A stretch of 64,000 bases of DNA, from assembly GCA_028534125.1 (NCBI GenBank), contig CM052816.1, forward strand, positions 101,246,001 through 101,310,000, written 5' to 3'. How positions within the stretch are numbered: the stretch's first letter is position 1; the number at the start of each line of letters is the position of its first letter. The position numbers were made by a program, and so were the translations under genes. The notes beneath the pieces were generated by a model. It made no database searches. It saw nothing but the letters and a program-made list of their open reading frames with translations, and was not told where the DNA came from. Below, piece after piece: positions 1,258 to 60,018 of this stretch. This DNA comes from Lama glama. Its lineage: Eukaryota.

Positions 1258-1425
1258 TTCGTGGTTGTGGTCAGCATCGCCACCTACAGGCCCCCACACT
1301 ACGGCGCCTACGTCTTCCCCGAGTGGGCCAACGTGCTGGGCTGGGCCATCGCCGCGTCCTCCATGTGTATGGTCCCCGTCTACGCGGCCTACAAGCTCTG
1401 CAGCCTTCCCGGGTCCTTGCGGGAG
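1258..1425 (+). CDS. SLC6A3: Dopamine transporter exon 13 (TM12)
   Basis: tttcag acceptor; 168 nt; [56 protein letters not shown]; donor GTGCGT. Confidence 0.97.
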
Positions 1426-2897: not shown

Positions 2898-3169
2898 GTG
2901 AGTGCCGCTCTCCCCATGCCAGTCGCAGGGGCGGCCTGGGTGGGTGCCCCCTCCTCCACCCCCCCAGCGAGGGGCCTGGTCAGGGCACCAGTATCAGCTG
3001 TGGGTGCTGCATGGCTGAGTCCTTCCAGGACATGGACACGTTGACTCGAAACCATGTATAGGGCACGACTGTAGGCAGGGGTGGGGGAGGGGAGGCCTAC
3101 TGGGACAGGAAACCTCCTCTTACGCAGACCGAAGGCGCAGGACACTCGGTCCCCACTGCACTTCCTGTC

Positions 3170-4450
3170 TTGTTAATTTCAGCTGTGTCCTGATTGCTCC
3201 CTTTTTTCATTAGGTCTACTCTGTTACACCTTTACTAACTTCTTAGTTTACACCTTAGATCGTCAATTTTCAACCTTTCTTCTTTTCTAATGTAAGCATT
3301 CAAGGCTAAGAATTTCCCTCAACGTACCCTGTTGGCTGCATTCCACAACTTCTGACAGAGCGTTTTATCATTTAGTTTTCAATGCATCTGAATTTTCACT
3401 GTGACTTCTTCATCCCAAGAGTTGCTTAGAAGTCAGCTTTTGAATTCCCAAGTATATGGAGATGTTTGATCTTTCTGTTACTAATTTCTAAATTAATTTC
3501 ATTGTGATCAGGTACCGTTTCACTCATTCTTTGAAGAACGTTGAGCTTCCTTTATGGCCAGTACCTAGTGGACTCTCGTGCGTGGTGCGTGCGCCTTTAG
3601 ATGTGGTGCGTTCTTCAGCAGTTGATCTCCTTCTGTTCGTTGGGGTAGGCTTGTAGTCATGTTCAGACCTTCTACAACATTGCTGATTCTGGCTCTGTCT
3701 GACCGTTATTAACTGGGAGATATTTAACGGGCTACCCCACCTTGAAAGTGTATTTGTCCAGTTTCCCCAGGTTTTGCTCTATTTTGAGCCTGTCTTCTGA
3801 GACAGAGACATGTTCAGAATCATCACATCTTCCTGGTGACTTCTCTCCCTTGTGATGGTCTTGCCCTGAAACCCTGTCTGTCTGAGATGACCACAGCTGC
3901 ACTAGGTTTCTTCGGAGTTAACCTGAAATATCTTTTGTAACCCTTTAACTTCCAACTTTGCAGTCATCTTAAAACGCAGGTGTCTTTCGCAGACCTCGAG
4001 CACACTGGCATGCCTCCCTCTGGCAGGTGGGCAGGTTGATCCATTTACATGCTGTGACTACCAATACGCTGGGCTTGAGTCTGCTCTTTGTAAGTCTTGC
4101 ATTTTTTAATGTTTATTTTTTGCTCTTTATTGCCTTTTATGATTGGTTTTTTCCTTATTCTACTTTTTCCTCTCTGTTATGAACCTACATACTTTATTCT
4201 ATTAACTTCCTAGTTGTTTTTGAAATTGTACCACGCGTATTTCAAGTATAAAGTTAAATATTTTCTGACCCCCATCCTGAATATTACAAGGACTTCAGTT
4301 TTCCTCCCACAGTTTTCAGCAAATATTCAGAAATATTTGGCTATTGTTTCTTCGATTTTTTTGCTCCGCCCCCTTCCACTTACACACGTATCTTCGGTCG
4401 CCTTATTCTCTCTGCTCTGTGGTTTTATTTTGCTTTCTGTTGCCCTTGTT
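3170..4450 (-). mobile_element. Old LINE-1 fragment (ORF2 endonuclease region), antisense in SLC6A3 intron 14
   Basis: Abrupt T-rich block in GC-rich DNA resembling antisense L1M ORF2; boundaries approximate. Confidence 0.7.
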
Positions 4451-6692
4451 TAGTTCACTAAGTGTTTTCCTCTGCAAAGCCCGACTCTTTGAAAACCCGC
4501 CCAGCACAGCCGCCGTCTCCCACGTGGCGGTTCTCCTCCCTAGAGGCCCAGCTGGGCCCCTTTGTGTCCCTCGTGCCCGCCTACCTCTTGGGACGCGGAG
4601 CGCAGCAGTGGCCACCGGAAGGCCCTTGTGCGCCGGCACCGGTGTCTGTGTCTGTGTCGTGTCCGTCCTGGCTCAGTTTCCTCACAAGGGCTGGATTCTG
4701 CTGCCGCTTTTCGTGTTCAGTCGTTTTTCATCGTGCGCCGCATGTTGTGAGTTTTACCTCGTTAGGTGCTTTCCTTTCGATGCTCGCGAGCTTTGTTCTG
4801 GGACGTTGTTAAGTTACCCGGAGACAGCTTGATCTTTGGGGGACTTGCTTTTTAAGACTTGCGAGGTGGGACCAGAGCAGCGTTTGGTGCGAGGCTAATG
4901 GTTCCCGCTGCTGGAGCGAGACCTTCCTGAACACCGTCCCCAGGACCCCAGCATCCATGTGATACTCTTGTTCACCTGCAGGGGGACACAGCTCCCGGCC
5001 TGTGCATTTCTGAGGTGTCCCCCAAATCCTGCCAGGAGGGTCTCCCTGGCTTTGGGGGCACTGAGAATAGCTGACCCCCGGGGACCCTGCACACTCACTC
5101 TGAAACTCCAGCCTGTGAACTCAGCGGCCTTGGGCTCCCCAGTGCTCAGCCCATCCCATCAGCCTAGGGGGTCACTGGGCCCTACCTGGCCTCTTCCCCG
5201 TGATGAACCTAGAAGGTCCCCGGAGGCCATGCTGGGGGCAGCGGGGTGGCTCACCCGGCTCATCTCTCTGGGCTCTCCGTCCTTTGTAGTCTGACATCCT
5301 AGTCTGGGAAATCATTATTATATGCACTTTGTTCATTTTACGCTGCTTCGGGGGATAGGGTCACTCCATCTGGACCAGCAGCACCTTTGCATGTGGCTCT
5401 GGTCCCTTCCCTCCGAGGCTGCCCAGCACCCGTGTTACGTCGTTACTTAAGCTCCATCTCGTATCCCCTGCCTTGTCCTGTTTCACCGCCAGCCCCATTC
5501 TGACTCCGTCTCTGGAGGCTGCCTCTGGCCTGCTGTTTCTGGTGAGCATCACTGTAAGCCACTCATTTCACTTCTTAAATCGTTTCCTGCATAGCTGCCC
5601 CCAAACCTGACGGCTGGTGCATGGGGGTCTGAGCTGAGCTCTGGTGTGTGCTGATTCACGCACAGTGGGCTGCTGTCCATGTGTGTGGTCTTCTGGTTGA
5701 GGGCCAGTTCAGCTGCGGGAATCCTGAGCGGCCTGTGAGTTCACTTCCTCCAGAGGACCACCTCTGGCTCGTCTGCGGCAGGACAGGGGCTCGGGCCTCA
5801 GCTGGGGCCTGAGTGCGGCTCCCCAGCCCCTGCATGGCTCTGGCGTCACCACGGAGCCACTGCTCTGGCCACAGGGCCGCTCTCGCTGCTCACGGTCAGG
5901 CCCCGCCCACTGGCTCCCTTCGCGACCACGCAGGTGTGTCCTGAGCAGGGCTGGCGGCGCCGCACAGGCTTCTGGGGTAGTAGAGAGCCTGTCGTGGGGC
6001 CAGCGGGAGACCTGGCACCTCCCCGTCCCCCGCGTGGCGTGTCAGAAACAAGCCTTCGTGCTCTCATTTGGAAACGTTTGCAAAACAGTTCTTGCCATTT
6101 TGTGCGATCGAATGGCTTATGCTCAAAAATAGGCTGAAGGAGCAGCTGCGTAATGACAGGCGGTGACATCTGTGGACAACTAAAGAGCGGCCGCCATCCA
6201 TCTCGTCTGCCCCGCGGGGCACACGCGGCCTCATCCACACTGCCTGGGGTCACACAGAGAAGATGGAGCGCAGGGCGCGGGTTTCACGGGGACGATCAGA
6301 GGCCCCAGGAGAGTGGCTGCAGGGGGCCTGGGGCATCACAGGTCCTGTGAGCTGGCGGGGGTGCCCTGAGACCAGCCCAGGCTTGCCAGCACCCAGCGTC
6401 CACCCAGCAGCTGATGTCACGCTGAAGTCTGGGGGTCGCAGAGGCTGCTGGCCTGTGCTCTGGCCCCTCTGTGCTCCCCGATGGCTCTGTGTGCAGCGAT
6501 GACTTCCCTTCATAAGGTTAAAGCAGGCACCCGGTCTGTCGTGTACCGGGAGCAGCGCTGTGCCCCCCGCCCACTCCCACCATCCACTCTGCTGAGGGGT
6601 CCCCAGCGACAAGCCGGGCCCTCAGCCGAGGAGCCGCCCTTATCCAAGCAGCTCCTCCCTTCGCTTCTGAACCAACCCTCTTTTCTTTTCAG

Positions 6693-6716
6693 CTCCGCCA
6701 CTGGCTCGTGGTGTAA
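6693..6716 (+). CDS. SLC6A3: Dopamine transporter exon 15, coding part
   Basis: Long pyrimidine tract plus cag; LRHWLVV-TAA (human LRHWLKV). Confidence 0.95.
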   Translation, partial: LRHWLVV

Positions 6717-7956: not shown

Positions 7957-7962
7957 AATAAA
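7957..7962 (+). terminator. SLC6A3: Probable SLC6A3 polyadenylation signal (3'UTR about 1.25 kb)
   Basis: First AATAAA after the stop codon, GT-rich sequence downstream; a variant ATTAAA also lies at 7128-7133. Confidence 0.7.
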
Positions 7963-9330: not shown

Positions 9331-9584
9331 AGTGCCCAGGGCCTCTCTGGACAGTCTGGGGCCGCTCTGGGGAGCCAGGCTGCCCTGGGACAGCGGGGGG
9401 TTCTTGCCTCCACAGCCCCTGGGTCCTGACAGGGTCTCGCTGGTGTCCCATCCTCAAGTGTCTGAGCTGGGGTCCTGCCCGGGAGCTGAGCCACATCAGG
9501 AAGCGACAAAGGGCTTACAGCCTGCACATGTAAACAACTCCCACAAATCAATAAGACCAAGAAGAACTACGATTCTGAACCCAA

Positions 9585-10353
9585 GTCCAGTGTGTGGGGG
9601 GTTTCCCACCCCTCCGAGCAGCTCTCAGGCGCTAGCTGGGTGTCCGACAATTCAGTTCAGCTCTGATGCTGCCCACCTGGAGGTGGTGTCTGACCCCATG
9701 GGTTCAGGGCTCTGTCCCACACGACTGCCCCGCCTCAGATGCCAGTCACAGTCCAGGCTGTCACCTGTGTTTCCCGAGGGCTCGAGGTCAGGGGTGCCAA
9801 CAACCACTCCTCAGGTTCGATGAACCCCCTGGCCCGGCTCCCGGGACTCAGGAACCCACTGTTCCCACCGCGGCACCAGGACACAGGGGCTTCTGCCTTC
9901 GTAGAGGCTGGGGCCCCAGGGGAGTGTTCTGGGTCCTCAACCCAGAAGCTCTCTGAACACCCTTCTGCAGGTTTTTATGGAGGCTTCATTACACAGACAC
10001 GATTGATTAAATCATTGGCCACTGGGGAGTGGCTCAACCTCCAGCCCCTCTCCCCTCCTCGGAGGTGGGGACTGAAAGCTCCAACCCTCTAGTCTGTGGT
10101 CAGCTCCCGGCCTCCAGCTCCACCTTAGACGCTTCCAAGTCTCTTCATTCACGTCAAGCCCGCTGTGGGGGGAGGGGCTTGGCATGGACAGTGAGACACC
10201 CCCTCGCTGTCCTTGCTTTGAAGCTGCGGACAAGAGACCAAATATCGTCGAGAAAGACGATCCTGCAGCTGTTACTGCCCAGGAAGTTCCGAGGGTTTTG
10301 TGAGCAGCCCTGAGCGGTGGGGGGGAGGCGGCGTGACTGCTCACAGCGTCACA
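9585..10353 (-). mobile_element. MER21-family ERVL solo LTR
   Basis: ttttatggaggcttcattacac...gattgattaaatcattggcca...ccagcccctctcccctcc...ctgaaagctccaaccctcta is the reverse complement of the recalled MER21 consensus; ends in tcaca. Confidence 0.75.
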
Positions 10354-11249: not shown

Positions 11250-11540
11250 GAGAGGTGGGTTAGTTAAGACGAGCAGCAATGTGCCTGGTGACCTTACAGA
11301 TGGAGAGAGACACAGAGACACACCCAGGAGACGGCGTGTGACCGCCTCCAGAGAGGCCAGAGTGATGCCGGGGTCACCGGGCACCAGACGCTGGGAGGGA
11401 GGGAGGCTGGGCCGCACGCCCTCTCAGGGCCCCACAGGAGGGACCAGCCCCACCCACAGCTGACTTCAGGCTCGCTTCCAGAGAGAACGAATTCCTGGCG
11501 GTCCTGGCCCACGGCCTCGGTGCTCCCAGGACACTGGCAC
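11250..11540 (+). mobile_element. MLT1-type MaLR LTR fragment
   Basis: ctggtgaccttacaga...gacacagagacacac...gagggaccagccccacccacagctgacttcag layout typical of MLT1. Confidence 0.55.
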
Positions 11541-11984
11541 AGACGGCGAGCCTGCCGGACGTCCGGGACCGCCTCGGCACTCCAGACCCACCCGCCTCCC
11601 CTGCTGCCTCCCCCTGCCTGGTGCCTCCCCTTGTTCTCCACCCGGAACAATCTCCTTCGTACTCCCGGCCCCTGCTTTCCAACCACTTACCTCTGCCGCC
11701 ATCACAGCTTCTCTTGGACACCACCTCTGAAAGCCTGCTCCGACCCCTGCCTCTGTGCTGGGCCCCTGGTCAGCGCTCCTCGAACCTCCCCCACTCTCCC
11801 CAGGCCTCCCCAGCAGGTGTCCCATGGGAGGGAGCATGCTCACTGTCTCCCCGGTGTGTGGAGAGCTCCCCTGGGAATGAGCCGGCCCCATTCGCTTCTG
11901 CCAGCGTCTACAATGGACCTGCACACAGCAGACAGTGGGGCTTGATGCGCACTTACAGATGAATGAGTTAAGGGGTAGGTATTT

Positions 11985-12240
11985 AGATGGCTGGGCAGCG
12001 GGTGGATAGGAGGAGGAGGGGAGAAAGGAGGGAGGGAAGAGGGGTGGAAGAATGGGTGGGCGGGTGAAGTCTAGACAGACGAAGGAGGGAGGGAGGGCCG
12101 ATGGCAAGCAGTTGGGCTGATGGGTGGATAAATGGATGAATGGTGGACGGGTGGACGGGTGGACGGATGGGTGAGTGGATGGAGGGGCACTTGGGTGGGT
12201 GGACGGGCAGGCGGGTGGGTGGAAGCACAGATGATGGAAG
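11985..12240. repeat. G-rich (GGAT/GGAC/GGGT)n simple repeat
   Basis: ggtggacgggtggacgggtggacggatgggtgagtggatgga. Confidence 0.8.
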
Positions 12241-15200
12241 GCCCTGTATCGCATCTGAAAGTCTGTAATTCTGGTCCAATCTCACCCCCGGCCGGGCTAG
12301 ACACATGAATGCTGTGTTTGGTGTCTGTTCTCCAAGGAGAGGTAAGGCTGTAACACAAGTGAAATGCGTTCATTTCAGAACACCTGAAGTGTTCTCTCCA
12401 CTGATGCGGCGTGGGAACCAAGCTCCCGGAAGGTAGGGGCTTCCTGCGCCCGGCCTTCCACCCATGGGAGGCCTCGGCGCCTCGGTCCGCGCTGCACTTT
12501 GTTGTCTGATTGACGCTCTTCACCCAGTGACCTTTAGACAGAGTCTGAGTGTTAAAGCCCAGAAAAGCCGTGTGATTTTTTCCTTTGAGAGAAGCATTTT
12601 AGCGAAGGTTTGGCAACAGTGAAACAGGTGATTTAAAGGGTAAACGGATTCCTCCGTGTTTGGCTTTTTCTGTTCTGTTCCCCAATCCTTTAATCTCTCT
12701 GCGGTGCTCCCGATCAGCCACGTCCGTGGCCTCTGCTTGTCTCCCGGTCACTGACAGCAGGGAAAGGTCACCTTTTTCGAGACAGTTAATTAGCAAGTCC
12801 TGTGTTCTGTGGTCCCCTGTGGAAGACGCCACCACGCCCCCTCCTCCGGGCAACCCACCTGCTCCCCTCCTCCCAGGACCCCGGGTCCCTGACACAGCGG
12901 ACAGAGCCCAAGGCACAGGTGCCCCCCAGCAGACCAGGGTCCTGCAGACCGACACCCCACTGGGCACCAGTACCAGCTGGCTGCACAGAGGGCTCGCCCC
13001 AGAGCCGGGAAAACAAAGCCAAGGCTGACGGCCTCACACCGGCCTCCACCTGCCCACCTGCTGGCCCTGAGGCAACCGGGCGGGCTGGCCCCCGAACCAC
13101 TCCCCAGGTGACCTGTGCCCCCCTGGCCCTGGGCCACGACAGGCAAGCTTTGGCGTCATTACATAGAGTGGAAAACGTCAGACTACTTCAGTTTAGTAAG
13201 TCTGGATTGATTTTTCTCTTAATTTAGCAAAACGGAAAATATGAGAGTCAGTGCATCCGAGAAGGGCAAGTTCTGCTTTGGGGAATGTTTCAAGTGTGCA
13301 CCTCGCCTGCGTGAAGGAGAGGCAGAGACCAAAGGTCAGAGACAGAGAACGACAGAGACACAGGGAGATGGGGGGTGGGTGGGGAACGGGGAGGGGAGAC
13401 AGGCCTTCGCAGTTCCGGTCAAAGGTTTGGGGCCCTGTCCTGGGTAGAGTGAGCGACCACCCCAGGCCGCCCTGCACTTCCCCGGATGGCTGGTCACCCC
13501 AGGCTGCAGCCCCACGGGGCCCCTCTGTCCCCCTGTGCGGGCCAGGGCAAGGCGGGCCCAGAGCTGGGGAGGAGGGAGGCCCAGGGCGGGTAGGTCAGCG
13601 GAGGAGCCACGGTGCCCCCCAGGGTGGGGCTGAGGAGAGCAGACTGCATGAGTCCCAGCAGGCGGCGGCCACCGTGTGCCCCGAGCAGAGGGCACTGGGA
13701 CCAGGGCACTGGGTACCGGGCACCGACCTCGTTTCCCGGTGCGGTGCCACACGACCGGCGTGCGCAGACGCCCTCCACCCTCTGCAGTGGGAATGGACAG
13801 CTGGGGGGCCAGGGCCACGGACTCCAGGGCAGGCCGGCCAGGTGAGGGCAGGTGATGAAAATGAGGGCAGTTCAGGGCGGCTCACTCCAGAGAACGTTAG
13901 TCACGTGGAAACACGAGGCCCACGTGGGCCGGGACCTCTGATTCTTTCCTGCGAAGTTAGGTATGTAGCTGTTTACTTAAGTACAAGCTGCCATATCAAT
14001 GGGGTGGCAGCAGTGGCCACCTCTCCTCCACCAGGGGGACACAGGGTCATCACAGAACTGGCTGGGGGGCTGCACCGGGGACGCGGACAGCCAGCCTGGG
14101 GGCAGATCTGCATCCCTGTTGCCCCCACACTGACCACAGCAGAGACCAGTGGCCCAACGCCCAGCCCGTGCCTCCCATAGCCACCACCAGGGCTGAGGCC
14201 ACAGGTGCCACACCAGCCGCAGGGGAGGCTGGCAGGTGATGATGGCTCAGGAACTGCCCTGTCCTCACCACAACCCGTCCCCTGATGGCCCACTGCCCAG
14301 CAGCCCCTGCTCAAGGCTGAGAGCCAGGGGCTTGCCAGGGGGAGGGTCACCAGCCCAGCCAGTCACGATACCCCTTTCTTGTGCCATCATCCAGGGCCAG
14401 ATATCCCGGGAAAACGGGCAGTTTCTTACACAGATGAGAGTCTGAGACCCTTGGGGTTGGAAGAACAGAACTCGGAAACTGGATGTGGTTTGCAGACCCC
14501 TCGACACCCCCCAGGCGCCCATCATCGTCCCCGTGGTGCAGGGACATCCTCTCTTTTCCCGGCCTCCCCTGGGTGTCCTGGGGGCTCGGATGAGTACAGG
14601 GACCCTCGTGACACGGGGCGGCACTCTCTGGGAGGCTGCCCTCTGACCACTGCAGCCTCAAGGGGCCCTCGGAGCGAAGAGGTGGCTCAGAGGAAAACAC
14701 CAACAGCATCGCTTTCTTGGAAAAGTCGCTGTTCCAGACTGAGGGCCAAAGGCCTCCATTTATATGACTGAGCGTTTAAATCGAGTCTGTGTTGACTCGT
14801 GCGCTGAGCCTATTTGCCTAGAATGTAGATAATCTCAAGTACTTATTGCGGAAGCTCAGCTCCTCTTCCCTTAAAGGTCTTTGTCGTGTGGACGAAGGGT
14901 TCCGTCAGGCAGAACGTGTCTCTGCGTTAAGGCCCGCCTGGGGCACGGATCACACACCCGCGCTGCGCCCGCAGAGCCCTCTCACTCCTCGCTGGGGTCT
15001 GAGGGTGATATTTGGGGTTGCTGTTCAATAAATAATTCATTAACAGTGTGTTCAAAGGCGGTGTGATGACCCACCGGCCGTTAAGTGCTCTGATACCCCT
15101 TAAGCCTTTCTCACACAGGGAAGCCAAGTCTGAAATTCTAAAATGCTCCGTTATATCAAAAGAGATCATTCTGAAAGCTCAGAAGGGAGGCAGGAGTCAC

Positions 15201-15674
15201 TGGCAGACTCAGTCCCAAGGCGGCAAAGTAGACGCGGCCCCTGGAAGGTAACCTGTGCGGCCTCGGGTGCTCAGGGCTCTGCCCCTGCAGTGACGCCGGG
15301 CTGCCGGTGCTCACCCCTCACTTTGTCTCCCGGTGGAGCGGTCAGCTGTTGGGGGGCCGGGGGGGCAGGAGGTAAGGGCAGGGCTGGGGCCAGTGAACCA
15401 CTGGCCCTGTGTGGCCCGGGCGGGGTCCCTGGCCGCCGGGCCTCGGTTTGCCGTCTGTTTCAGGGGCTCCCTGCGCCCGCCGCTCGGCTGTGAAAGGATG
15501 GACGAGCTGGAACACAGCAGGTGCTGGGCCGTCCTGGGCGGGCACGGCTGCTGGCGTGACGCGGGTCCGTCGGCCCTCAGCAGCGCCTCAGCCAGCGAGG
15601 TGACAGCTCCCGGTACACTTGCTGGTTGTTGCCAGCATGCAGAAACTTTGTTTTCGTTGTGGTGGTTTGGTTTT

Positions 15675-15783
15675 GGGGGGGTATGTATTTATTTGCTATT
15701 TTTTTTTAACGGAGGTGCTGGGGACTGAACCCAGGACTCGTGTGTGCTAAGCACGTGCTCTACCACTGGCTACACCCTCGCCC
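15675..15783 (-). mobile_element. tRNA-derived SINE (camelid Vic-1-like)
   Basis: Reverse complement reads gagggtgtagcc-agtggtagagcacgtgcttagcac...tcctgggttcagtccccagcacctcc plus A-rich tail; homologous to the copies at 47832 and 59893. Confidence 0.85.
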
Positions 15784-17149
15784 CAGAAAAGTTGTTCCTA
15801 ATCCAGTTAATAGCTCGTTTATCCAGCCCCACCTGACTTCAGAAATGCAAATTTAGTGGAAGGGATGTGTTGTTTCCGCAGCGCGGTTGCCTTGTGGGCA
15901 GCATCAGCACAGCAGGCCCTAACCCCTGCCCCGGGGAGGCCTGCGCTCCAGGGACGTGGGCGCCGCCTCGGCCAGGAGGGGCCTGCTCCGGCTTGCAGCG
16001 TCCACAGCAGCCACCCGGGGCCCGGGGAGGAAGCGGCTCTCTGGCAGGAAGGAGGGAGTGGATGACGCCAGCGGGGCACACGGTCCCCCCCGCTCCGGGA
16101 GCCCCTTGGAGAACCTGCAAACCACAGGCCCCTCACACTCAGCAGACTGAGCGCCCACAGCCTGGGCTCCAAGACCCGGCCCTCGCACCACGTCGGAGTG
16201 GTGGGAAGGCCGTGGACGCGACGCCGGGGGAGATTGGAGGCGCCCGGTGAGTCCCCTGGCCCAGGTGCGGAGTCAGGTTTAAACACCTGCTCTGCGGGGG
16301 TGCTGAGGTGCCTTGCTGGGAAGATCTTCCACCTCCTCGTTGTCGGCTGGAAAAATCCATCCCTGTGTTTGGGCTCAAATCAAGAAACTCTTCCGTATTT
16401 TCTCAAAACAACAGACTTTTACCCCAAAATAGGCTTTCAAATTAAAACTGCACAAAATGAGATTCAAGAAAGGAAGGACTGGAAGGTTCCAGTGGATGGG
16501 GGGTGAGACCACTCTCAGTGTCGGAGCCTCAGCCAAGGCCCACGCCCACATCAGGCCTGTCACCCTGGAGCAGACGGGGCGGGTGGGGAAGGAGCTCGGC
16601 CCCCCGCCCCCCCCCGCCCCCAGCAGAGCCCTGTCACTCTCTGAGCATCGGGCCGCCATCCAGTCTTTCGGGTCCCTGAGCGGCTTCCCCGGGCTGCCAT
16701 CCTCGCCAACAACCAGATCCTGACCCCACGGGTGCGTGTGCACTGGCCTCGCGGGAGCTCCTCCTCTGCCCCCCACTCCGACCCCCTCCGAGGGGCTGGC
16801 TCACATCCCCTCCCCCGAGCTTCGACTCTGTCTCCAGTTGCTGTCAGAGTAGACGTGCCCGGAGCCAGGCCGAGTGACCACCTCCCCTCGCCCTGTGCTG
16901 CCTCTGCTCTGGGCCTCCACTGGGGGTCCAGCCACCCCAAGATTGTCAGCAGTGAGCAGCCTCCTGCCAACAGCCAGCAAGAAAGCCCTGCCCACAGCGG
17001 CGAGAAGCCGCTCCTGCCAGTGAGCTGGGGGCATGGACGCGGTCCTTGCCAGGTCCGGCCCCAGATGGGCGTGGCCTGAGACCCAGAGAGGGGGCTCTCG
17101 ACCCAGGAAACATGGTCTCGCTGTCAGCGGCGCTTCTGAAGGTAAGGAC

Positions 17150-27649: not shown

Positions 27650-30530
27650 GGACGGCAGGTGCATTTACCACCTGAATCAACACCACCACTTCCTAGAGTC
27701 TGTTTCAGAGACGCACCGTCAAAAAATATGAGACAATGCATGTCCCAGCTTATGCATTAGAGCCCTGGTTTTAATTACCAGAGGCTGGAAACCACCCAGT
27801 CGTCTATCAATATGGAGGTCGTTGAATAAACTGTGGTACATCCGCAAAACGGACAACGTGCAGCCGTAAAGAGATATAAAAAACACCTCTACTTACTGTA
27901 TGGTGTTCTCTCCAAGGCATAGGGGAAAAAAGAATTTTAAAAACCCACTGGAAATTCCAGAGACAAAAAATATAACACCCAAAATGAGAAATTCCAGACT
28001 GAGCTTAACAGCGGTTTAGAACTTGCAAGAAAGCATCAGTGGCTTAAACACGGAGATGCAGAAAGCGCTCAGGCCCAGCACAAGATGGGACAGACGCTGA
28101 AAACCTGACAGAGCCTCGGTGGCGCTGGGGCCGCAGGCTGCTGACACACACGCCCCAAGAGGAAGCAGACAGGAAGTGCCGAAGAAATCTTGGCTGCGGC
28201 GTTCCTAAATCTGATGGAACCCACAAATTGAGTAAGTTCGATAAGCCACAAGCAGGACGAAGGGAAAGCATGACAGCAAACTGCCAAACACCAGTGACTT
28301 TTCCAAAAATGCTAAAAGCAGCCAGAGGAAGGACACACACGATGTGCAGCGAAGCAGAGACGCGGGCGGCACAGGTGCTGAGTCTCACCAGAGACGGCGC
28401 GAGGAGGACGGTAGGACAGCACCCTTAACATTCAGCTGGAAGAAAAACTGCCCATCGACCTGGAATCCTACACTTGGTGAAAAATATCTTTCAAAAAAGA
28501 GAGGGCAAATTAAACTCATTTCCATACCCGCATGGCTGGCAGGACTCACCACCAGCAGACCTGCAAACAAGAAACGCTCACAGAGGTTATTGGGGCTCAA
28601 GGAGTAAACACCAGCCAGGAGCCAGGGCGGGCGCGCACAAAGGAGCTGAGACAGCAGGGGGGGGGGTGTGGGGAAGTTAAACATGCCTTTGCTCATTTTC
28701 AATTGACTTACGAGCTAACCGACTGCTCAAAGCAAAAATGACAGTGGAGTTGACGGCACACCTGGAAGTGAAAAGTATGACCAGTAAGCAAGAAACAGGA
28801 GAGCAGAAGTGAGACTTCACGACCTGAAGCTGTCGCAGCCCACGTGAAGAGCTGCAGTAAGGCCTGAAGGCAGACCGTCTCAAGGTAAAGCAGCATACTG
28901 ACAACTGTCCAGCAGGAAAACCACTGAACATAACAGAACAAGGCCTGGCTGAGAGGCCAACAAAGAAGGGACACTTCAACCCTTAAAGTACAAAAATAAT
29001 AAGAAGAAAAGAGGGCAGAAAAATAGGGAAAGGAACAAAGAACTGACGGGACAAACAGAAACCACGCTGATAATGACATCAACTTGAAACGATGTAACAC
29101 CCAAGCTGAACGGCAGCGACTGTCAACCAGAATTTTTTTAAGAGGAGAAACTAACTGTAAACTGCCTACAAGAGACACGTTTCAAACATAAAGACACAGA
29201 GGGCGTGGATGTGAAAGAGGAGGGCGTGGGAGGCACTGGAAAGGGAAAGTTGAAGTAGTTACGTCACTTTGAGACAAAGCAGACTTCAGAACAAAGGAAT
29301 AAAGGACAGTTCAAAACAACAAAACGGGCAACTCACCAAGCAGACATAACACCCTAAACCAGCACACACTAAGTAACAGAGCTTCAAAACCCATAAGGCA
29401 AAAACTGGCAGAAACGCGGGGAACACAAAGCTCTCCTCGTAACACTGACTCACTGGGTATCGTAAGCAGTTGACCCTTTTCCGCTTTGAGAGACAATTAA
29501 GAAGAAAACACAAGCAATGCATTGGGAGGAAGTATTCACAAAACATATTTCTTCCAAAATACTCACACCCAGCATATATAGTGAACTCTCACAGCCTGAT
29601 AACATGGTGGTACACAGCCCCGAACTTCCCCTGGGCGACAGATTTGGAAAGATATTTCATAAAAGAAGATACATGTGTGTAATTCTTCTAATTTCTACGA
29701 TAATCACAATCTGACACTCAGTTGTTTTCCAGTGCTTTTATTTATTTATTTAAACATTTTTTATTGATTTATAATCATTTTACAATGTTGTGTCAAATTC
29801 CAGTGCTTTTATAGTGTAAATATTCTTCCTCCTCAAATGTATTATAATCATTAACGAAAACTGCAAACAAAAAAAAAATAAGATATACGAATGACCAATA
29901 AGCACACAGAAATGCTCACCATCATTAGGAATCAGAAGGATGCAAATTAAAACCACAGTGGGATATCACTGTGGACCTACTCCAAGGAATACACTTCAAA
30001 AGACATAAAACATAATTTTGGTTTTAAAGCAACTGAAACTCTCAAAACTTGTTGGCAGCAATGCTAAAATGGTACAATTACATTGGAGAATTGTTCGGCA
30101 ACCTCCCTGATGTCCATCCACGGGTGAATGGTTAACCAAACTGTGGTACATACACACCAAGGAATTCTACTCAGCAACGGAAAGGTACAAACTCCCGATT
30201 AACGCAACGACAGTGATGGATTCCACACACACCATGCTCAGTAAAGAAGTCAGGCACAAAAGACTGAATGATTCCATGTACGGAAAATTCTGGAACAGAC
30301 TCAGCTGATCATGGGGACCGAAAACAGACCAGTGCTGCCTGGGGGCTGGGCAGGGAGCGGGTGCTGACAGCAAAGAGGCCAGATGGAGCTTTTGAAGGGA
30401 TGCAAATGTTCTCTGTCCTGTTGTAGTAGGGGTTATCTGGGTGAAGACATTTGTCAAAACTCACAGAAATACACACTTAGAATGGGTTTTCTTTATGCAA
30501 ATTATACATCAGTAACTTTGGTTTAAACGG
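27650..30530 (+). mobile_element. Composite of old LINE-1 fragments (ORF2 3' piece, ORF1, ORF2 EN, ORF2 3' end and 3'UTR)
   Basis: A-rich block with L1 hallmarks: aaactgtggtacat, agacaaagcagacttcagaacaa, atgcaaattaaaaccacagtg, ttgtcaaaactcacaga. Confidence 0.8.
29742..29797 (-). mobile_element. Young, severely 5'-truncated L1 3' end with 15-bp target-site duplication
   Basis: Reverse complement tttgacacaacattgtaaaatgattataaatcaataaaaaatgtttaaataaataa; flanked by exact TTCCAGTGCTTTTAT at 29727-29741 and 29798-29812. Confidence 0.85.
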
Positions 30531-32049
30531 GGGACGGCCAGAACTTACCACCAGGATATCTTTTTAAATGAATATAAAATGACCACTCACAGAATCACCA
30601 CCCCCATATCCTCTGCAAGTATCACATGAGTCCAGGGAGAACCGAGGTTGTCTCTCCTCACTGAGGGCGCCGCCCTGCCCCTGGCAGCCCAGGTCTGTGG
30701 CGCTCATTCAGAGCTGCCAAGAGTTAGTCAACCCCAGAGGTGGTGGCGAGCTCTTGGGGCCAGAATATAAGGTAAAAAACATGGGATCATACCAAGAGTC
30801 CTCTTGGCTTGGGGCTCACCATGAAAGAAGGAAAGAAAAGGGAGGGGGCAGGTGAAGATGGGCTCCCTGGACCCTGGACTGCAGCAGCTTCCCCTTTCTT
30901 TAGCCCCCCCCCCATGAGGAAAGGGTGCAGAGCATGGGGCTCTGTGACAAATCTATGTGAGCACGTGAGTTTTGACCTCACACAGCGCCGGAGGGCTGAC
31001 GTTCCAGGGGCCCTGAGAATCAGCCGCAGCCTCTCTCTGGAGAATGACCAGCATTCGAGGGGCCCTAACCAGACCGCCACTCAACAGGGAAGCTCTCTAA
31101 ATACCACCTTACACACCAGCACCAGGAGAGCTGCTGAGAAACGTGAAAGATGTTACGAGTAGCTTTCCAACAGCTGAGTGTTTCTCGCGGGTGGGAAAGA
31201 AAATCCCAAGGGAGCCGCGTCCTCACGTGCAGGACCAGGCGTGGACCCTCGGTGTGACCCGGAGTGCGGAAGCTGGGTAGGCCACAAGCCCCGCCCCCCA
31301 TCAAGGCCGGGTCAGTTCCCAGCTGCACAAACAGCAGGGCTGCCAGCTCTGCGAGACGGCTCTCGTCCCTGCACGCCGGTAACTAGCCGCACCTGGGACA
31401 CAAGTCTCACAGGACCCAAACCGGGCCGGAGAGGCCGGGAGAGTGATACGAAGCTGCACCCCAGAGCCCCTTCCTGAGGCCCAGCCGCATCCTGGCTTTG
31501 GGATGCCATGGGACTCCCCCCCCACCCCGCCCTGGGTCTCCTCTTGTGCTTACGCAGTGGGGTTGGTCTTTGTTCCTCACAGACTAAGAGGCATACAGAG
31601 TTCCCTCCGCTGCGCAGAGAAGTGAGCAAAGCCGCGGAGTATGGCGCCGGCTGACCCTGCAGGGCAGGAGCACAGGGCATGGCGGCCTAGGGGCAAAAGG
31701 CTGGTCAGCCTGCAGAGGTGGGTGGACTTTACCCTCAGTAACAGGAGTCAGAAAAGGGTTTGCAATGAGGGCAGGTGTGCTCCATGGGGCGCAGGTGGAG
31801 ACGGGGTGCAGCTACACGTCATTCCAGTGGCTGAAGCCAGCAGGGCCACATGCAGCGTCTACAGGCGAGAGTGAGCAGATGAGGGTGGAAGAGGCAGGGG
31901 AGAGCCCGCTCCCCGGCCAGGCCTCCGTCCCTCGGCTGTCTCTGCCGCAGCAGTCACGCCCCCATCTCCGAAAATCCTGAGCAACTTTCTAGGCCTTTAA
32001 CAGCACCCAGGCTTTCTGTAAACGCCTCGCAACGCTTCTGGCTGAGTCA

Positions 32050-32900
32050 GCAGAGGCGAGACCCCCCCCCCCGCCCCGACGTACACGAGGGCGGGGCGTT
32101 CTCCAGCGCAGGGCCGGCCAGCGGGCACGGCGGCCCCAGGCAATCGAGGGCCCTGATTCTACCGACTCTTCGATGGAAACAGGAAGAGCGGGTGGGGGCG
32201 GCGGCTGGGGGGCCCGGCGCTCTGGGGGCAGCCCGGCCTCCCGACACCCGCCTTCAAGACACGCGCCGACGCCCCCCAGGACCGGCCGAAGCCCGAACAC
32301 GCGGGCGCCGCAGGGCATGCCGGGAGGGCGGCGCGGGAGGGTGACGTAACACCACGCCCCTGACGTAGCGTGCGTGCGCGGCGGCGGCTGGACTACGCTT
32401 CCCAGGGGGCCGCGCGGCGCGCCCACTTCCGGCGGACGGTGCAGGGCCCGGAAGCGGCGCGGGCGGCGAATCCCGGGGCGACAGGTCGGCGGCGGCGACA
32501 GGAGTATGCGGGGCGGCGGGCAGCCCGCGGCGCGCGGCGGGTTCGTTCCCCGGAGGTGGCGGCGACGCGCGGCGGCTCTCGCGTGAGCGGCGGCGGCGGC
32601 GGCCGGAGCGTGCGGGCGGGCGGCGGGGCCCTCGGCAGTGAGGTGGGCCCGGCCCGGCGGCGGCGCCATGTGGAGCGGCCGCAGCTCCTTCACCAGCCTG
32701 GTCGTGGGCGTGTTCGTGGTGTACGTGGTGCACACCTGCTGGGTCATGTATGGCATCGTCTACACCCGCCCGTGCGCCGGCGGCGGCAACTGCATCCTGC
32801 CCTACCTGGCGCGGAGGCCCAAGCTGCAGGTGAGCGCAGGCTCCTCCCACTTGAGCTCTGACCTCTGACTTCGGGGCGAGGTCAGGGGCCAGGCCCTTCG
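32050..32900 (+). promoter_or_regulatory. CLPTM1L: CLPTM1L CpG-island promoter
   Basis: Dense CpG; CRE-like TGACGTAA 32342 and TGACGTAG 32361; NRF1-like TGCGTGCGC 32371; ZNF143/THAP11-like ACTACGCTTCCCAG 32392; ETS/GABP sites CACTTCCGG 32424 and CCGGAAG 32448; no TATA box. Confidence 0.9.
32668..32829 (+). CDS. CLPTM1L: CLPTM1-like (ER lipid scramblase) exon 1
   Basis: gccATG; MWSGRSSFTSLVVGVFVVYVVHTCWVMYGIVYTRPC...RPKLQ; donor GTGAGC. Confidence 0.97.
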
Positions 32901-33216
32901 CACCTGAACCGGACCCGGACTCCACACCCCGTGTCCTAAAGACCCTTCCCGCACGCGGGCCCCTGGGCCCGTCTTCACCCCGTCTTAAGACGCCCAGAGT
33001 CGGTGTACCCCTGCCCGGCTGATGAAGCGGGTCAGACACTGTAGCACAGTGTCCCTTGCAGCAGGGACGTCCGCTCCGCCATCCTGTCACAGGTGGGAGT
33101 TAAGGTGCACCTTCCCCCGTGGTAGCTGGTGCGTGTCCCTCCCTCCAGTCGCTGTTTGCCGCGTGTGCTTTCCGCCAGGGGTCTTGCCCAGCTGACTTTC
33201 TTGGCGTCCCTTCCAG

Positions 33217-33317
33217 CTCAGCGTGTACACCACCACGCGGTCCAACCTGGGTGCAGAGAACAACGTGGATCTGGTCTTGAACGTGGAGGACTTTGACGTG
33301 CAGTCCAAATTTGAAAG
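33217..33317 (+). CDS. CLPTM1L: CLPTM1L exon 2
   Basis: 101 nt; LSVYTTTRSNLGAENNVDLVLNVEDFDVQSKFER; AG/GT. Confidence 0.96.
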
Positions 33318-34199
33318 GTATGGATGTGGACTGAGTGACGGGAAAACGTCATTATCGTTGAGATGGTGGAAAAGTCAGCATTCTGCATGTGAGGGGTGAC
33401 CTCAGAGAAGCAGTGTCACCTGCCATCTCCTGCTTTACCTGCAGATGTGTGTGGTACACAAACAGTCGGACTTTGGTTTCACTTGAAAGTGGCAGGTGCC
33501 GTTTATCATCTAGGAAGTGGATTACGGCAGCCGACGCTGATGGCCGGGATCAGCGCAGCCATGGGGGTTTCCAGAGGAGCAGGTGCTGTGGCGGGGATGA
33601 AGTTGGGGACAGACCTTGTACAGTTTCCCGCAGCAAACAGCTTGTCTTCCTGGTGCAAGTGGCTCAGTTGGGCCTCCTGTCAGGGAAGGAGAAGGGATGG
33701 AGGAAAGAATTTAGCAGAAAATCGTAATGAAGTGAAATATTGTATAACAACGGACCAAGCAGTGTTTAAGTGTTCAGATGCATAAAGTGAGTTCTTAAAG
33801 TTGCATTTAACCTACGGTTCTCGTGTTTTGAATTTCAGCGAGGTAATTTTTAAAATGGTTAAAAATGATGTGCTTGTCAAGAGTGTACGTCTTTGGGCGG
33901 CAGTGCAGCAGGCAGAGGGCACTCGGGCTTGGAGTTGGCCTGGTTAGCCTGGGCATGCAGTGAGTTCTGACTCCCGAGCCTGGGAAACGGGGCAGGAAGT
34001 GCAGGACTTTCAGAACGTTTCGTAAATGTCCAAGGTTAGGATTTCAGTGGTGTCTAGGCAGGTGGGTTTCATTTTTAGTACTTTCAGCAAAAATTAGTTG
34101 TGCAGTTTCAGACGTTATTTATAAGGGTACTTGAGTGGTCTCCACCGTGTGTGTACGCAGAACGTAAAATGTAGGTGGTTGAATTGTCATTTGTTTCAG

Positions 34200-34389
34200 G
34201 ACAGTTAATGTTTCTGTGCCAAAGAAAACCAGAAATAACGGGACGCTGTATGCCTACATCTTCCTCCACCATGCGGGCATTCTCCCGTGGCAGGATGGGA
34301 AGCAGGTGCACCTGGTGAGCCCTCTGACCACCTACATGGTCCCCAAACCAGAAGAGGTCAATCTGCTCACTGGGGAGTCTGCTACTCAG
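34200..34389 (+). CDS. CLPTM1L: CLPTM1L exon 3
   Basis: 190 nt; TVNVSVPKKTRNNGTLYAYIFLHH...GESATQ; AG/GT. Confidence 0.96.
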
Positions 34390-55614: not shown

Positions 55615-55833
55615 ATGCCGCGCGCGCTGCAGTGCCGGGCGGTGCGCTCCCTGCTGCGGAGCCGCTACCGGCAGGTGCTGCCGCTGGCCACCTTCGTGCG
55701 GCGCCTGGGGCCCGAGGGCCGGCGGCTGGTGCGGCGCGGGGACCCGGCGGCCTTCCGCGCGCTGGTGGCCCAGTGCTTGGTGTGCGTGCCCTGGGACGCG
55801 CAGCCGCCCCCCGCCGCCCCGTCCTTCCGCCAG
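55615..55833 (+). CDS. TERT: Telomerase reverse transcriptase exon 1
   Basis: 219 nt; [32 protein letters not shown]...AAPSFRQ; donor GTGGGC. Confidence 0.97.
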
Positions 55834-59780: not shown

Positions 59781-59892
59781 TTCCTGGTGGAAAAACCTTG
59801 ACTCTGTCTGTGCTGAGGCTCTGGGGAAACCTGTGCACCTCTGCTCATGACGTTTCTAAGTGCACAGGATAAAACACAGAGGACCGGGTGTT

Positions 59893-60018
59893 GGGAGGGT
59901 GTAGCTCAGTGGTAGAGTGCGTGCTTAGCATGCAGGAGGCCCTGCGTTCAGTCCCCGGTACCTCCATTAAATAAATAAATAAACCTAATTACTACTCCCC
60001 GAAAAAATAAACAAAACA
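59893..60018 (+). mobile_element. tRNA-derived SINE (camelid Vic-1-like) with TSD
   Basis: A-box tagctcagtgg, B-box gttcagtcc, (TAAA)n tail; AAAACACAGAG repeated at 59871-59881 and 60019-60029. Confidence 0.9.

What the first reader, a model, noticed from the sequence alone, without database searches (positions are those of the whole stretch)
12490..13340. Candidate midbrain-dopaminergic enhancer: three perfect Nurr1 NBREs downstream of SLC6A3
Seen: exact AAAGGTCA elements at 12528-12535 (minus strand), 12763-12770 (inside the palindrome AAAGGTCACCTTT) and 13331-13338. They lie in or beside AT-richer unique blocks that also hold TGATTGAC (PBX/PREP, 12507), CTTTGTT (SOX, 12497), TGATTTAA (PBX-HOX-like, 12629), GTAAAC (FOX-like, 12640), TAATCT (PITX/OTX-like, 12691), TGACAG (MEIS, 12752) and TTAATTA (LMX1/EN-like, 12786). 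About 0.03 copies of one 8-mer are expected per 800 bp at equal base frequencies, and I noticed only two others in the window (410 and 27110). Established: NR4A2, PITX3, PBX1, LMX1A/B, FOXA2 and SOX6 specify DAT-positive neurons. Inference: this is a 3' enhancer of SLC6A3. I do not know whether it has already been described.
Basis: partly seen in the sequence, partly recalled or inferred. Interest (0 to 1): 0.7.

Follow-up and report, generated by a model that had tools for sequence, protein, structure and literature searches.

The report
Candidate Nurr1 enhancer behind dopamine transporter
A 310-base stretch just behind the dopamine transporter gene carries two perfect Nurr1 binding sites packed with other factor motifs and is likely, though untested, a switch that helps turn the gene on in dopamine neurons.

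Summary
All ten motifs are at the stated places; one further NBRE (49235) was missed. The site lies 4.5-5.4 kb behind the SLC6A3 polyA signal and 20 kb before CLPTM1L. In 864 kb of the own genome it is the only NBRE triple within 811 bp; the chance per 64 kb is about 0.25-0.5%, but about 90 such triples are expected genome-wide. The signal is a core at 12490-12800: two NBREs plus PBX, SOX/TCF and homeodomain sites. It is single-copy and shows 6 substitutions in 248 bases against a relative about 5% diverged, versus 51 in 991 in flanks (P 0.04). The third NBRE has no companion motifs. The FOX and PITX matches are non-canonical. No distant ortholog, chromatin or binding data could be reached, so cell type and target gene are inferred. 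Verdict: probable enhancer (about 0.75), Nurr1-driven SLC6A3 enhancer about 0.5. It would be a new member of a known kind. Ten literature searches found no description, but unseen enhancer-AAV supplements may hold its ortholog.

The parts
12490..12800 (.). Core of the candidate enhancer: A+T-richer, single-copy block with two NBREs and companion motifs
   Evidence: GC 0.48 against 0.59 for the 864 kb around it; one match in the own genome; only region with 6 or more of 7 lenient motif classes and 1 of 3 with 4 of 6 strict classes in 864 kb; 6 substitutions in 248 bases at 12576-12823 and no listed indel between 12398 and 12822 in the relative
12497..12503 (+). CTTTGTT: SOX-type site, equally a TCF/LEF-type site (names recalled)
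12507..12514 (+). TGATTGAC: PBX/PREP-type octamer, 13 bases before NBRE1 (name recalled)
   Evidence: 2 copies in 264 kb; the PBX+NBRE composite occurs 7 times in the genome, reversed control 19
12528..12535 (-). NBRE1, perfect monomer site AAAGGTCA
   Evidence: NBRE definition in PMC1636490
12629..12636 (+). TGATTTAA: PBX-HOX-like site (weak, name recalled)
12640..12645 (+). GTAAAC: FOX-like but non-canonical (next base G)
12691..12696 (+). TAATCT: K50-homeodomain-like, non-canonical for PITX
12752..12757 (+). TGACAG: MEIS/PREP hexamer, common (52 in the window)
12763..12775 (+). NBRE2 (12763-12770) inside a palindrome; overlapping one-mismatch NBRE on the minus strand (12768-12775)
12786..12792 (+). 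TTAATTA: generic Q50 homeodomain site (LMX1/EN-like, names recalled)
   Evidence: 8 in 264 kb
13326..13338 (+). NBRE3 (13331-13338), outside the core, at the edge of a second A+T-richer block (13141-13360); also DR1/HNF4-like; likely accessory or chance
1258..1425 (+). SLC6A3 coding exon (residues 534-589 of full-length DAT), fixes the gene's identity
6693..7962 (+). SLC6A3 last exon: last codons, stop at 6714-6716, AATAAA at 7957-7962
   Evidence: read
32668..34386 (+). 5' exons of CLPTM1L, the next gene and an alternative target
   Evidence: ATG read; Pfam CLPTM1 E 3e-11 for 34201-34386

Best explanation
The block at 12490-12800 holds two perfect NBREs with PBX, SOX/TCF and homeodomain motifs 4.5 kb behind SLC6A3, and is likely a distal enhancer through which Nurr1 (NR4A2) would activate the dopamine transporter gene in dopamine neurons. 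Shown: the motifs, their local excess over chance, single copy, the position, and a lower substitution count than the flanks in one relative. Inferred: NR4A2 binds each NBRE as a monomer (by eye, no RXR DR5 half-site lies upstream of any NBRE and the spacing is not a NurRE). A PBX-PREP/MEIS complex next to NBRE1 and a homeodomain factor next to NBRE2 would help open the site and restrict it to dopamine neurons. The element would loop about 39 kb back to the G+C-rich SLC6A3 promoter, which has no perfect NBRE in this genome. NBRE3 is at most accessory.
For: Only NBRE triple within 811 bp, and the two shortest of 44 gaps, in 864 kb; chance 0.25-0.5% per 64 kb, 4% for the close pair alone in a 75-kb domain. 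Non-NBRE strict motif classes reach 3 or more in only 1.6% of GC-matched 310-bp windows. Single copy, no coding or Rfam signal. In run X18, 6 of 248 bases differ in 12576-12823 against 51 of 991 in its three other long pieces (Fisher P 0.04; class-adjusted expectation 15.8, P 0.005). From 2 kb before to 1 kb after the inferred start of transcription there is no perfect NBRE and one 1-mismatch site. A human SLC6A3 promoter-plus-intron MiniPromoter (Ple360) gave no dopamine-neuron expression (PMC13000167, passages and supplement), so distal elements are plausibly needed. NURR1, PITX3, FOXA2 and LMX1A are listed as SLC6A3 regulators (PMC9008071, passages).
Against: No distant mammalian ortholog could be fetched. 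Whether the NBRE bases are intact in the relative is not shown (90 rows hidden), and at 5% divergence all 24 would survive neutrally with P 0.24. The constraint test rests on one contig of depth about 4 and 31 calibration changes. The lenient motif score is post hoc. FOX and PITX sites are non-canonical. About 90 NBRE triples are expected by chance genome-wide. The PBX+NBRE composite is not enriched genome-wide (7 against 19 reversed controls). TH has 0 perfect NBREs in 100 kb, and neither TH nor DDC has a comparable cluster. PMC2883569 (passages) reports poor non-coding conservation of the human locus, with 3 conserved regions including 5-kb flanks.
Confidence: 0.5

Rival explanations
1. The core is a real enhancer but works in another cell type or on another gene: NR4A1/2/3, PBX and TCF/SOX act in many tissues, and the targets could be CLPTM1L (20 kb away), TERT (43 kb) or the SLC6-family genes further on.
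For: CLPTM1L starts nearer (20 kb) than the SLC6A3 promoter (about 39 kb). All three NR4A proteins bind the NBRE, and CTTTGTT is also a TCF/LEF site (recalled). NBRE3 fits a recalled HNF4/DR1 consensus at 12 of 13. Further SNF-family exons lie 81-105 kb from the window start. The motifs most specific to dopamine neurons (FOXA, PITX) are the weakest.
Against: CLPTM1L has a CpG-island promoter (GC 0.74 at 32-33 kb) of the housekeeping type. The densest NBRE cluster in 864 kb sits beside the one established Nurr1 target there. The HNF4 fit is reached by 6 of 45 local NBREs. A simple CTCF consensus found no site to separate or join the genes (a weak test).
Confidence: 0.25
2. It is a chance cluster of short words in neutral, A+T-richer DNA (perhaps an unrecognisably old repeat), noticed because it lies next to a famous Nurr1 target.
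For: About 90 chance triples genome-wide; many motifs and genes could have drawn attention; 11 A+T-richer blocks lie between the polyA signal and CLPTM1L; companion motifs were chosen after they were seen; unadjusted constraint P is only 0.04.
Against: Only 2 of 318 other matched 8-mers form such a triple in the SLC6A3 domain, both low-complexity, and none of the other 629 CpG-free permutations of the NBRE does. Strict companion motifs add an independent 1.6%. Substitutions are about half the flank rate. No second copy in the genome.
Confidence: 0.25

Closest known systems
NBRE monomer sites of NR4A receptors (AAAGGTCA; PMC1636490, passage)
   Same: Three exact octamers; monomer type.
   Different: Distal and 3' of the gene instead of in a promoter; binding not shown.
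Described SLC6A3 cis-elements: 5' enhancer E-8.7, 5'VNTR, intron 1 DNPi, intron 8 and 3'UTR VNTRs (PMC9008071, passages); Ple360 promoter plus intron element (PMC13000167)
   Same: Same gene, same proposed factors (NURR1, PITX3, FOXA2, LMX1A).
   Different: All lie upstream of or inside the gene; the passages seen name no element beyond the polyA site.
Dopamine-neuron enhancer-AAV elements AiE0888m, AiE2326m and others (bioRxiv 10.64898/2026.02.23.706695, passages) and cjDAE8 (bioRxiv 10.1101/2025.11.06.687071, passages)
   Same: Compact distal elements of a few hundred bases that would do what is proposed here; candidates were also picked within about 500 kb of marker genes.
   Different: cjDAE8 and cjDAE4 lie in introns of other loci. 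The coordinates of the 105 Allen candidates are in supplements I could not see, so identity with one of them is open.

Membership tests
NBRE (NR4A monomer element) | Exact AAAGGTCA octamer | tested here: met
   3 of 3 sites exact
NBRE (NR4A monomer element) | Bound by NR4A protein in cells | not testable with these tools
   No ChIP or CUT&Tag data reachable
NurRE or Nurr1-RXR DR5 dimer element | Two octamers everted with a 6-base spacer, or an RXR half-site 5 bases upstream (geometry recalled) | tested here: not met
   Sites are 235 and 568 bp apart; the palindromic partner overlaps NBRE2; flanks show no half-site by eye
Midbrain dopamine-neuron enhancer | Clustered sites for dopamine-neuron factors above background | tested here: met
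   met for NBRE, PBX, SOX and homeodomain, not for canonical FOXA or PITX
Midbrain dopamine-neuron enhancer | Non-coding, single-copy DNA | tested here: met
Midbrain dopamine-neuron enhancer | Evolutionary constraint on the motifs | tested here: inconclusive
   Core 6 of 248 against 51 of 991 in one close relative; base-level status of the NBREs not displayed; no distant species
Midbrain dopamine-neuron enhancer | Open chromatin and H3K27ac specific to dopamine neurons | not testable with these tools
   Supplement searches gave no locus-level peaks
Midbrain dopamine-neuron enhancer | Drives reporter expression in TH/DAT neurons | not testable with these tools
   Needs an assay
Enhancer of SLC6A3 | Contact with the SLC6A3 promoter and loss of expression on deletion | not testable with these tools
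   Only position is known

The most novel reading that the evidence does not exclude
This is the missing, mammal-wide 3' enhancer that gives SLC6A3 its dopamine-neuron restriction: a Nurr1-PBX-homeodomain module that explains how Nurr1 controls a gene whose promoter lacks a perfect NBRE and whose promoter constructs fail in vivo. It is undescribed and usable as a 300-bp driver for DAT-positive neurons.
Probability: 0.25. Interest if true: 0.7.

Novelty: new member of a known kind. Interest (0 to 1): 0.4.

Why it matters
SLC6A3 is the marker of mature midbrain dopamine neurons and a risk locus, yet the elements that restrict it are poorly mapped. The review passages seen list only upstream and intragenic elements, and a promoter-plus-intron construct failed in vivo. 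A compact 3' Nurr1 enhancer would make direct Nurr1 control of DAT testable with a few point mutations, give a short AAV driver, and point to a place to look for regulatory variants. The kind of element is ordinary, and its ortholog may already be in chromatin atlases or enhancer-AAV screens.

Tried and rejected
A tighter pattern gave 6 bacterial matches in genome contigs and 0 in viral contigs; plasmids gave no match. Coding exon, structured RNA or tandem repeat: rejected. Young repeat: rejected by single copy; only short weak self-matches at the edge of NBRE3, in a GA-rich run. NurRE or DR5 dimer site: geometry not met. Positive control: the same motif scores over 100 kb each at TH (identity confirmed) and at a decarboxylase gene taken as DDC (by recalled peptide) found no comparable cluster; TH has 0 perfect NBREs and DDC 9, unclustered. 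Transcription: runs labelled RNA cover the stretch, but cover runs across all 30 bins in X16 and may be DNA, so it is no evidence of enhancer RNA. Adding up overlapping contig counts to place substitutions around NBRE1 gave inconsistent bounds and was dropped. The bacterial promoter scan is irrelevant here. Earlier findings: 4 look-ups, nothing. Literature: 10 searches; the phrases 'SLC6A3 enhancer', 'DAT enhancer', 'DAT1 enhancer' and 'enhancer of SLC6A3' were in 0 papers, 'downstream of SLC6A3' in 1 (PMC9097974, listing only).

Full report
Setting. The window is C1:101,246,001-101,310,000 of a 2.35-Gb mammalian assembly. A tRNA-derived SINE at 15710-15779 looks camelid to me (recalled, not tested). 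The exon at 1258-1425 matches the dopamine transporter (E 7e-28; noradrenaline transporter 1e-14). The stop codon is at 6714-6716 and AATAAA at 7957-7962 (read). The SLC6A3 start codon lies about 24.6 kb before the window and a G+C-rich promoter about 26.5 kb before it (by eye; SNF exons). CLPTM1L begins at 32668, and a gene I recognise as TERT at 55615 (recalled). The finding is therefore intergenic: 4.5-5.4 kb behind the SLC6A3 polyA signal, about 39 kb from its promoter and 20 kb before CLPTM1L.

Observation. The window has 6 NBREs, one more than reported, against a shuffle mean of 1.94. The sequence is non-coding and holds no Rfam family or tandem array. Both 12450-12850 and 12850-13450 have one match in the genome.

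Is it more than chance? I fetched 800 kb of flanking DNA. In 864 kb there are 45 NBREs, 1 per 19 kb. The two shortest of 44 gaps (235 and 568 bp) are this cluster; the next is 2574 bp. The Poisson expectation for a triple within 811 bp is 0.0025 per 64 kb and 0.033 per 864 kb. Of 319 matched 8-mers (3 G/C, no CpG, similar count, the NBRE included), 21 of 4147 word-by-tile tests gave such a triple. In the SLC6A3 domain only the NBRE and two low-complexity words did, and none of the other 629 CpG-free permutations of the NBRE. Against this, about 90 triples are expected genome-wide, a rate confirmed by 48 everted pairs at 220-250 bp. The cluster is notable only because of where it is.

Anatomy. 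The companion motifs all fall in 12490-12800 (GC 0.48). With strict patterns it has 4 of 6 classes (NBRE, PBX, SOX, homeodomain), as do 2 other regions, and 1.6% of GC-matched windows reach its 3 non-NBRE classes. FOXA and PITX fail the strict patterns. NBRE1 is 13 bases from TGATTGAC; this composite occurs 7 times in the genome against 19 reversed controls, so it is rare but not enriched. NBRE2 is flanked by TGACAG and TTAATTA and overlaps a one-mismatch copy on the other strand. NBRE3 has 0 companion classes and fits a recalled HNF4/DR1 consensus at 12 of 13, as do 6 of 45 local NBREs. Motif-to-factor names other than the NBRE are recalled.

Constraint. Fourteen runs hold the stretch at 98-100% of words and six at 10-17%. 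I laid 4 of those 6 on 11500-14400. They come from a relative about 5% diverged. In X18 the piece 12576-12823 has 6 differences in 248 bases and no gap; its three other long pieces have 51 in 991 (Fisher P 0.04). Adjusting for CpG and base class from 31 listed changes gives an expectation of 15.8 (P 0.005), a fragile figure. Four short X18 pieces in a simple repeat were left out. No indel is listed between 12398 and 12822. The X16 piece holding NBRE3 has 20 differences in 327 bases, no better than the flanks. The tool hid 90 rows, so the state of the NBRE bases is unknown, and they would all survive neutrally with P 0.24. No distant mammal was reachable.

Controls that did not help. TH (confirmed) has no perfect NBRE in 100 kb. 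The locus taken as DDC has 9, unclustered. Neither has a block like this one. The grammar is thus not a general mark of dopamine genes in this genome. The SLC6A3 promoter region has no perfect NBRE; single ones lie 7.5, 12.6 and 15.5 kb upstream of it and one at 410 in an intron.

Mechanism. Most likely (0.5), Nurr1 monomers bind NBRE1 and NBRE2, helped by a PBX complex and a homeodomain factor, and the block acts on the SLC6A3 promoter in dopamine neurons. Motifs, position, uniqueness and reduced divergence are shown; binding, cell type, looping and target are inferred. Rivals: an enhancer for another tissue or gene (0.25), or a chance cluster (0.25).

Literature. Ten searches found no description of an enhancer beyond the 3' end of SLC6A3. 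I saw passages only, no whole text. PMC1636490 defines the NBRE and cites by title a 2001 paper on a 'novel mechanism' of Nurr1 action on the DAT promoter; that this mechanism is NBRE-independent is recalled. PMC9008071 lists upstream and intragenic elements. PMC2883569 reports poor conservation of the human locus. PMC13000167 shows the failed Ple360 construct, built from chr5:1,444,870-1,446,634 and 1,423,964-1,424,520. PMC4378246 cites Foxa2 and Nurr1 binding at Th and Dat. bioRxiv 10.64898/2026.08.10.744065 notes JASPAR NR4A2 sites in the human and mouse loci without places. bioRxiv 10.64898/2026.02.23.706695 screened 105 dopamine-neuron candidates, some picked near marker genes; 10.1101/2025.11.06.687071 screened 12; 10.64898/2026.01.20.700641 uses AiE0888m. 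Their supplements are closed, so the ortholog may be among them. PMC12237622 (supplement search), PMC10719105, PMC10716911, PMC13001318, PMC10245633 (passages and supplement searches) and 10.64898/2026.03.15.711881 (passages) gave no data on this locus.

Verdict. It is a reasonable, cheap-to-test candidate of a known kind, not a new mechanism. Interest 0.4.

Noticed in passing
G000:C1, window-relative -34017, -39189 and -42042 (loci L002, L003): Three single perfect NBREs upstream of SLC6A3; the nearest is about 7.5 kb before the inferred start, a distance close to the human E-8.7 enhancer named in PMC9008071. Correspondence untested.
   Followed up: no
   Followed up: partly
window 14981-15220: Another short A+T-richer block 2 kb behind the core, with AATAAA and TAAT words; possibly a second element. 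Not tested.
   Followed up: no
window 15650-15790 and 59890-60000: tRNA-derived SINE copies (Rfam tRNA hit at 15710-15779), of a camelid-like type by recall.
   Followed up: partly
window about 9470-10300: An old LTR-like fragment (MER21-like, recalled) between the polyA site and the core.
   Followed up: no
window 3100-4500 and 27700-30600: A+T-rich, strand-skewed stretches that look like decayed L1 fragments (name recalled).
   Followed up: no
G000:C36:1290001-1390000 (L200-L209): The TH locus has no perfect NBRE in 100 kb, where about 5 are expected at the local rate.
   Followed up: partly
G000 contigs C87954, C1016798, C38, C55592, C86843, C129061: The same matches appear twice in opposite orientation within one contig, suggesting mirrored duplications or assembly artefacts.
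   Followed up: no
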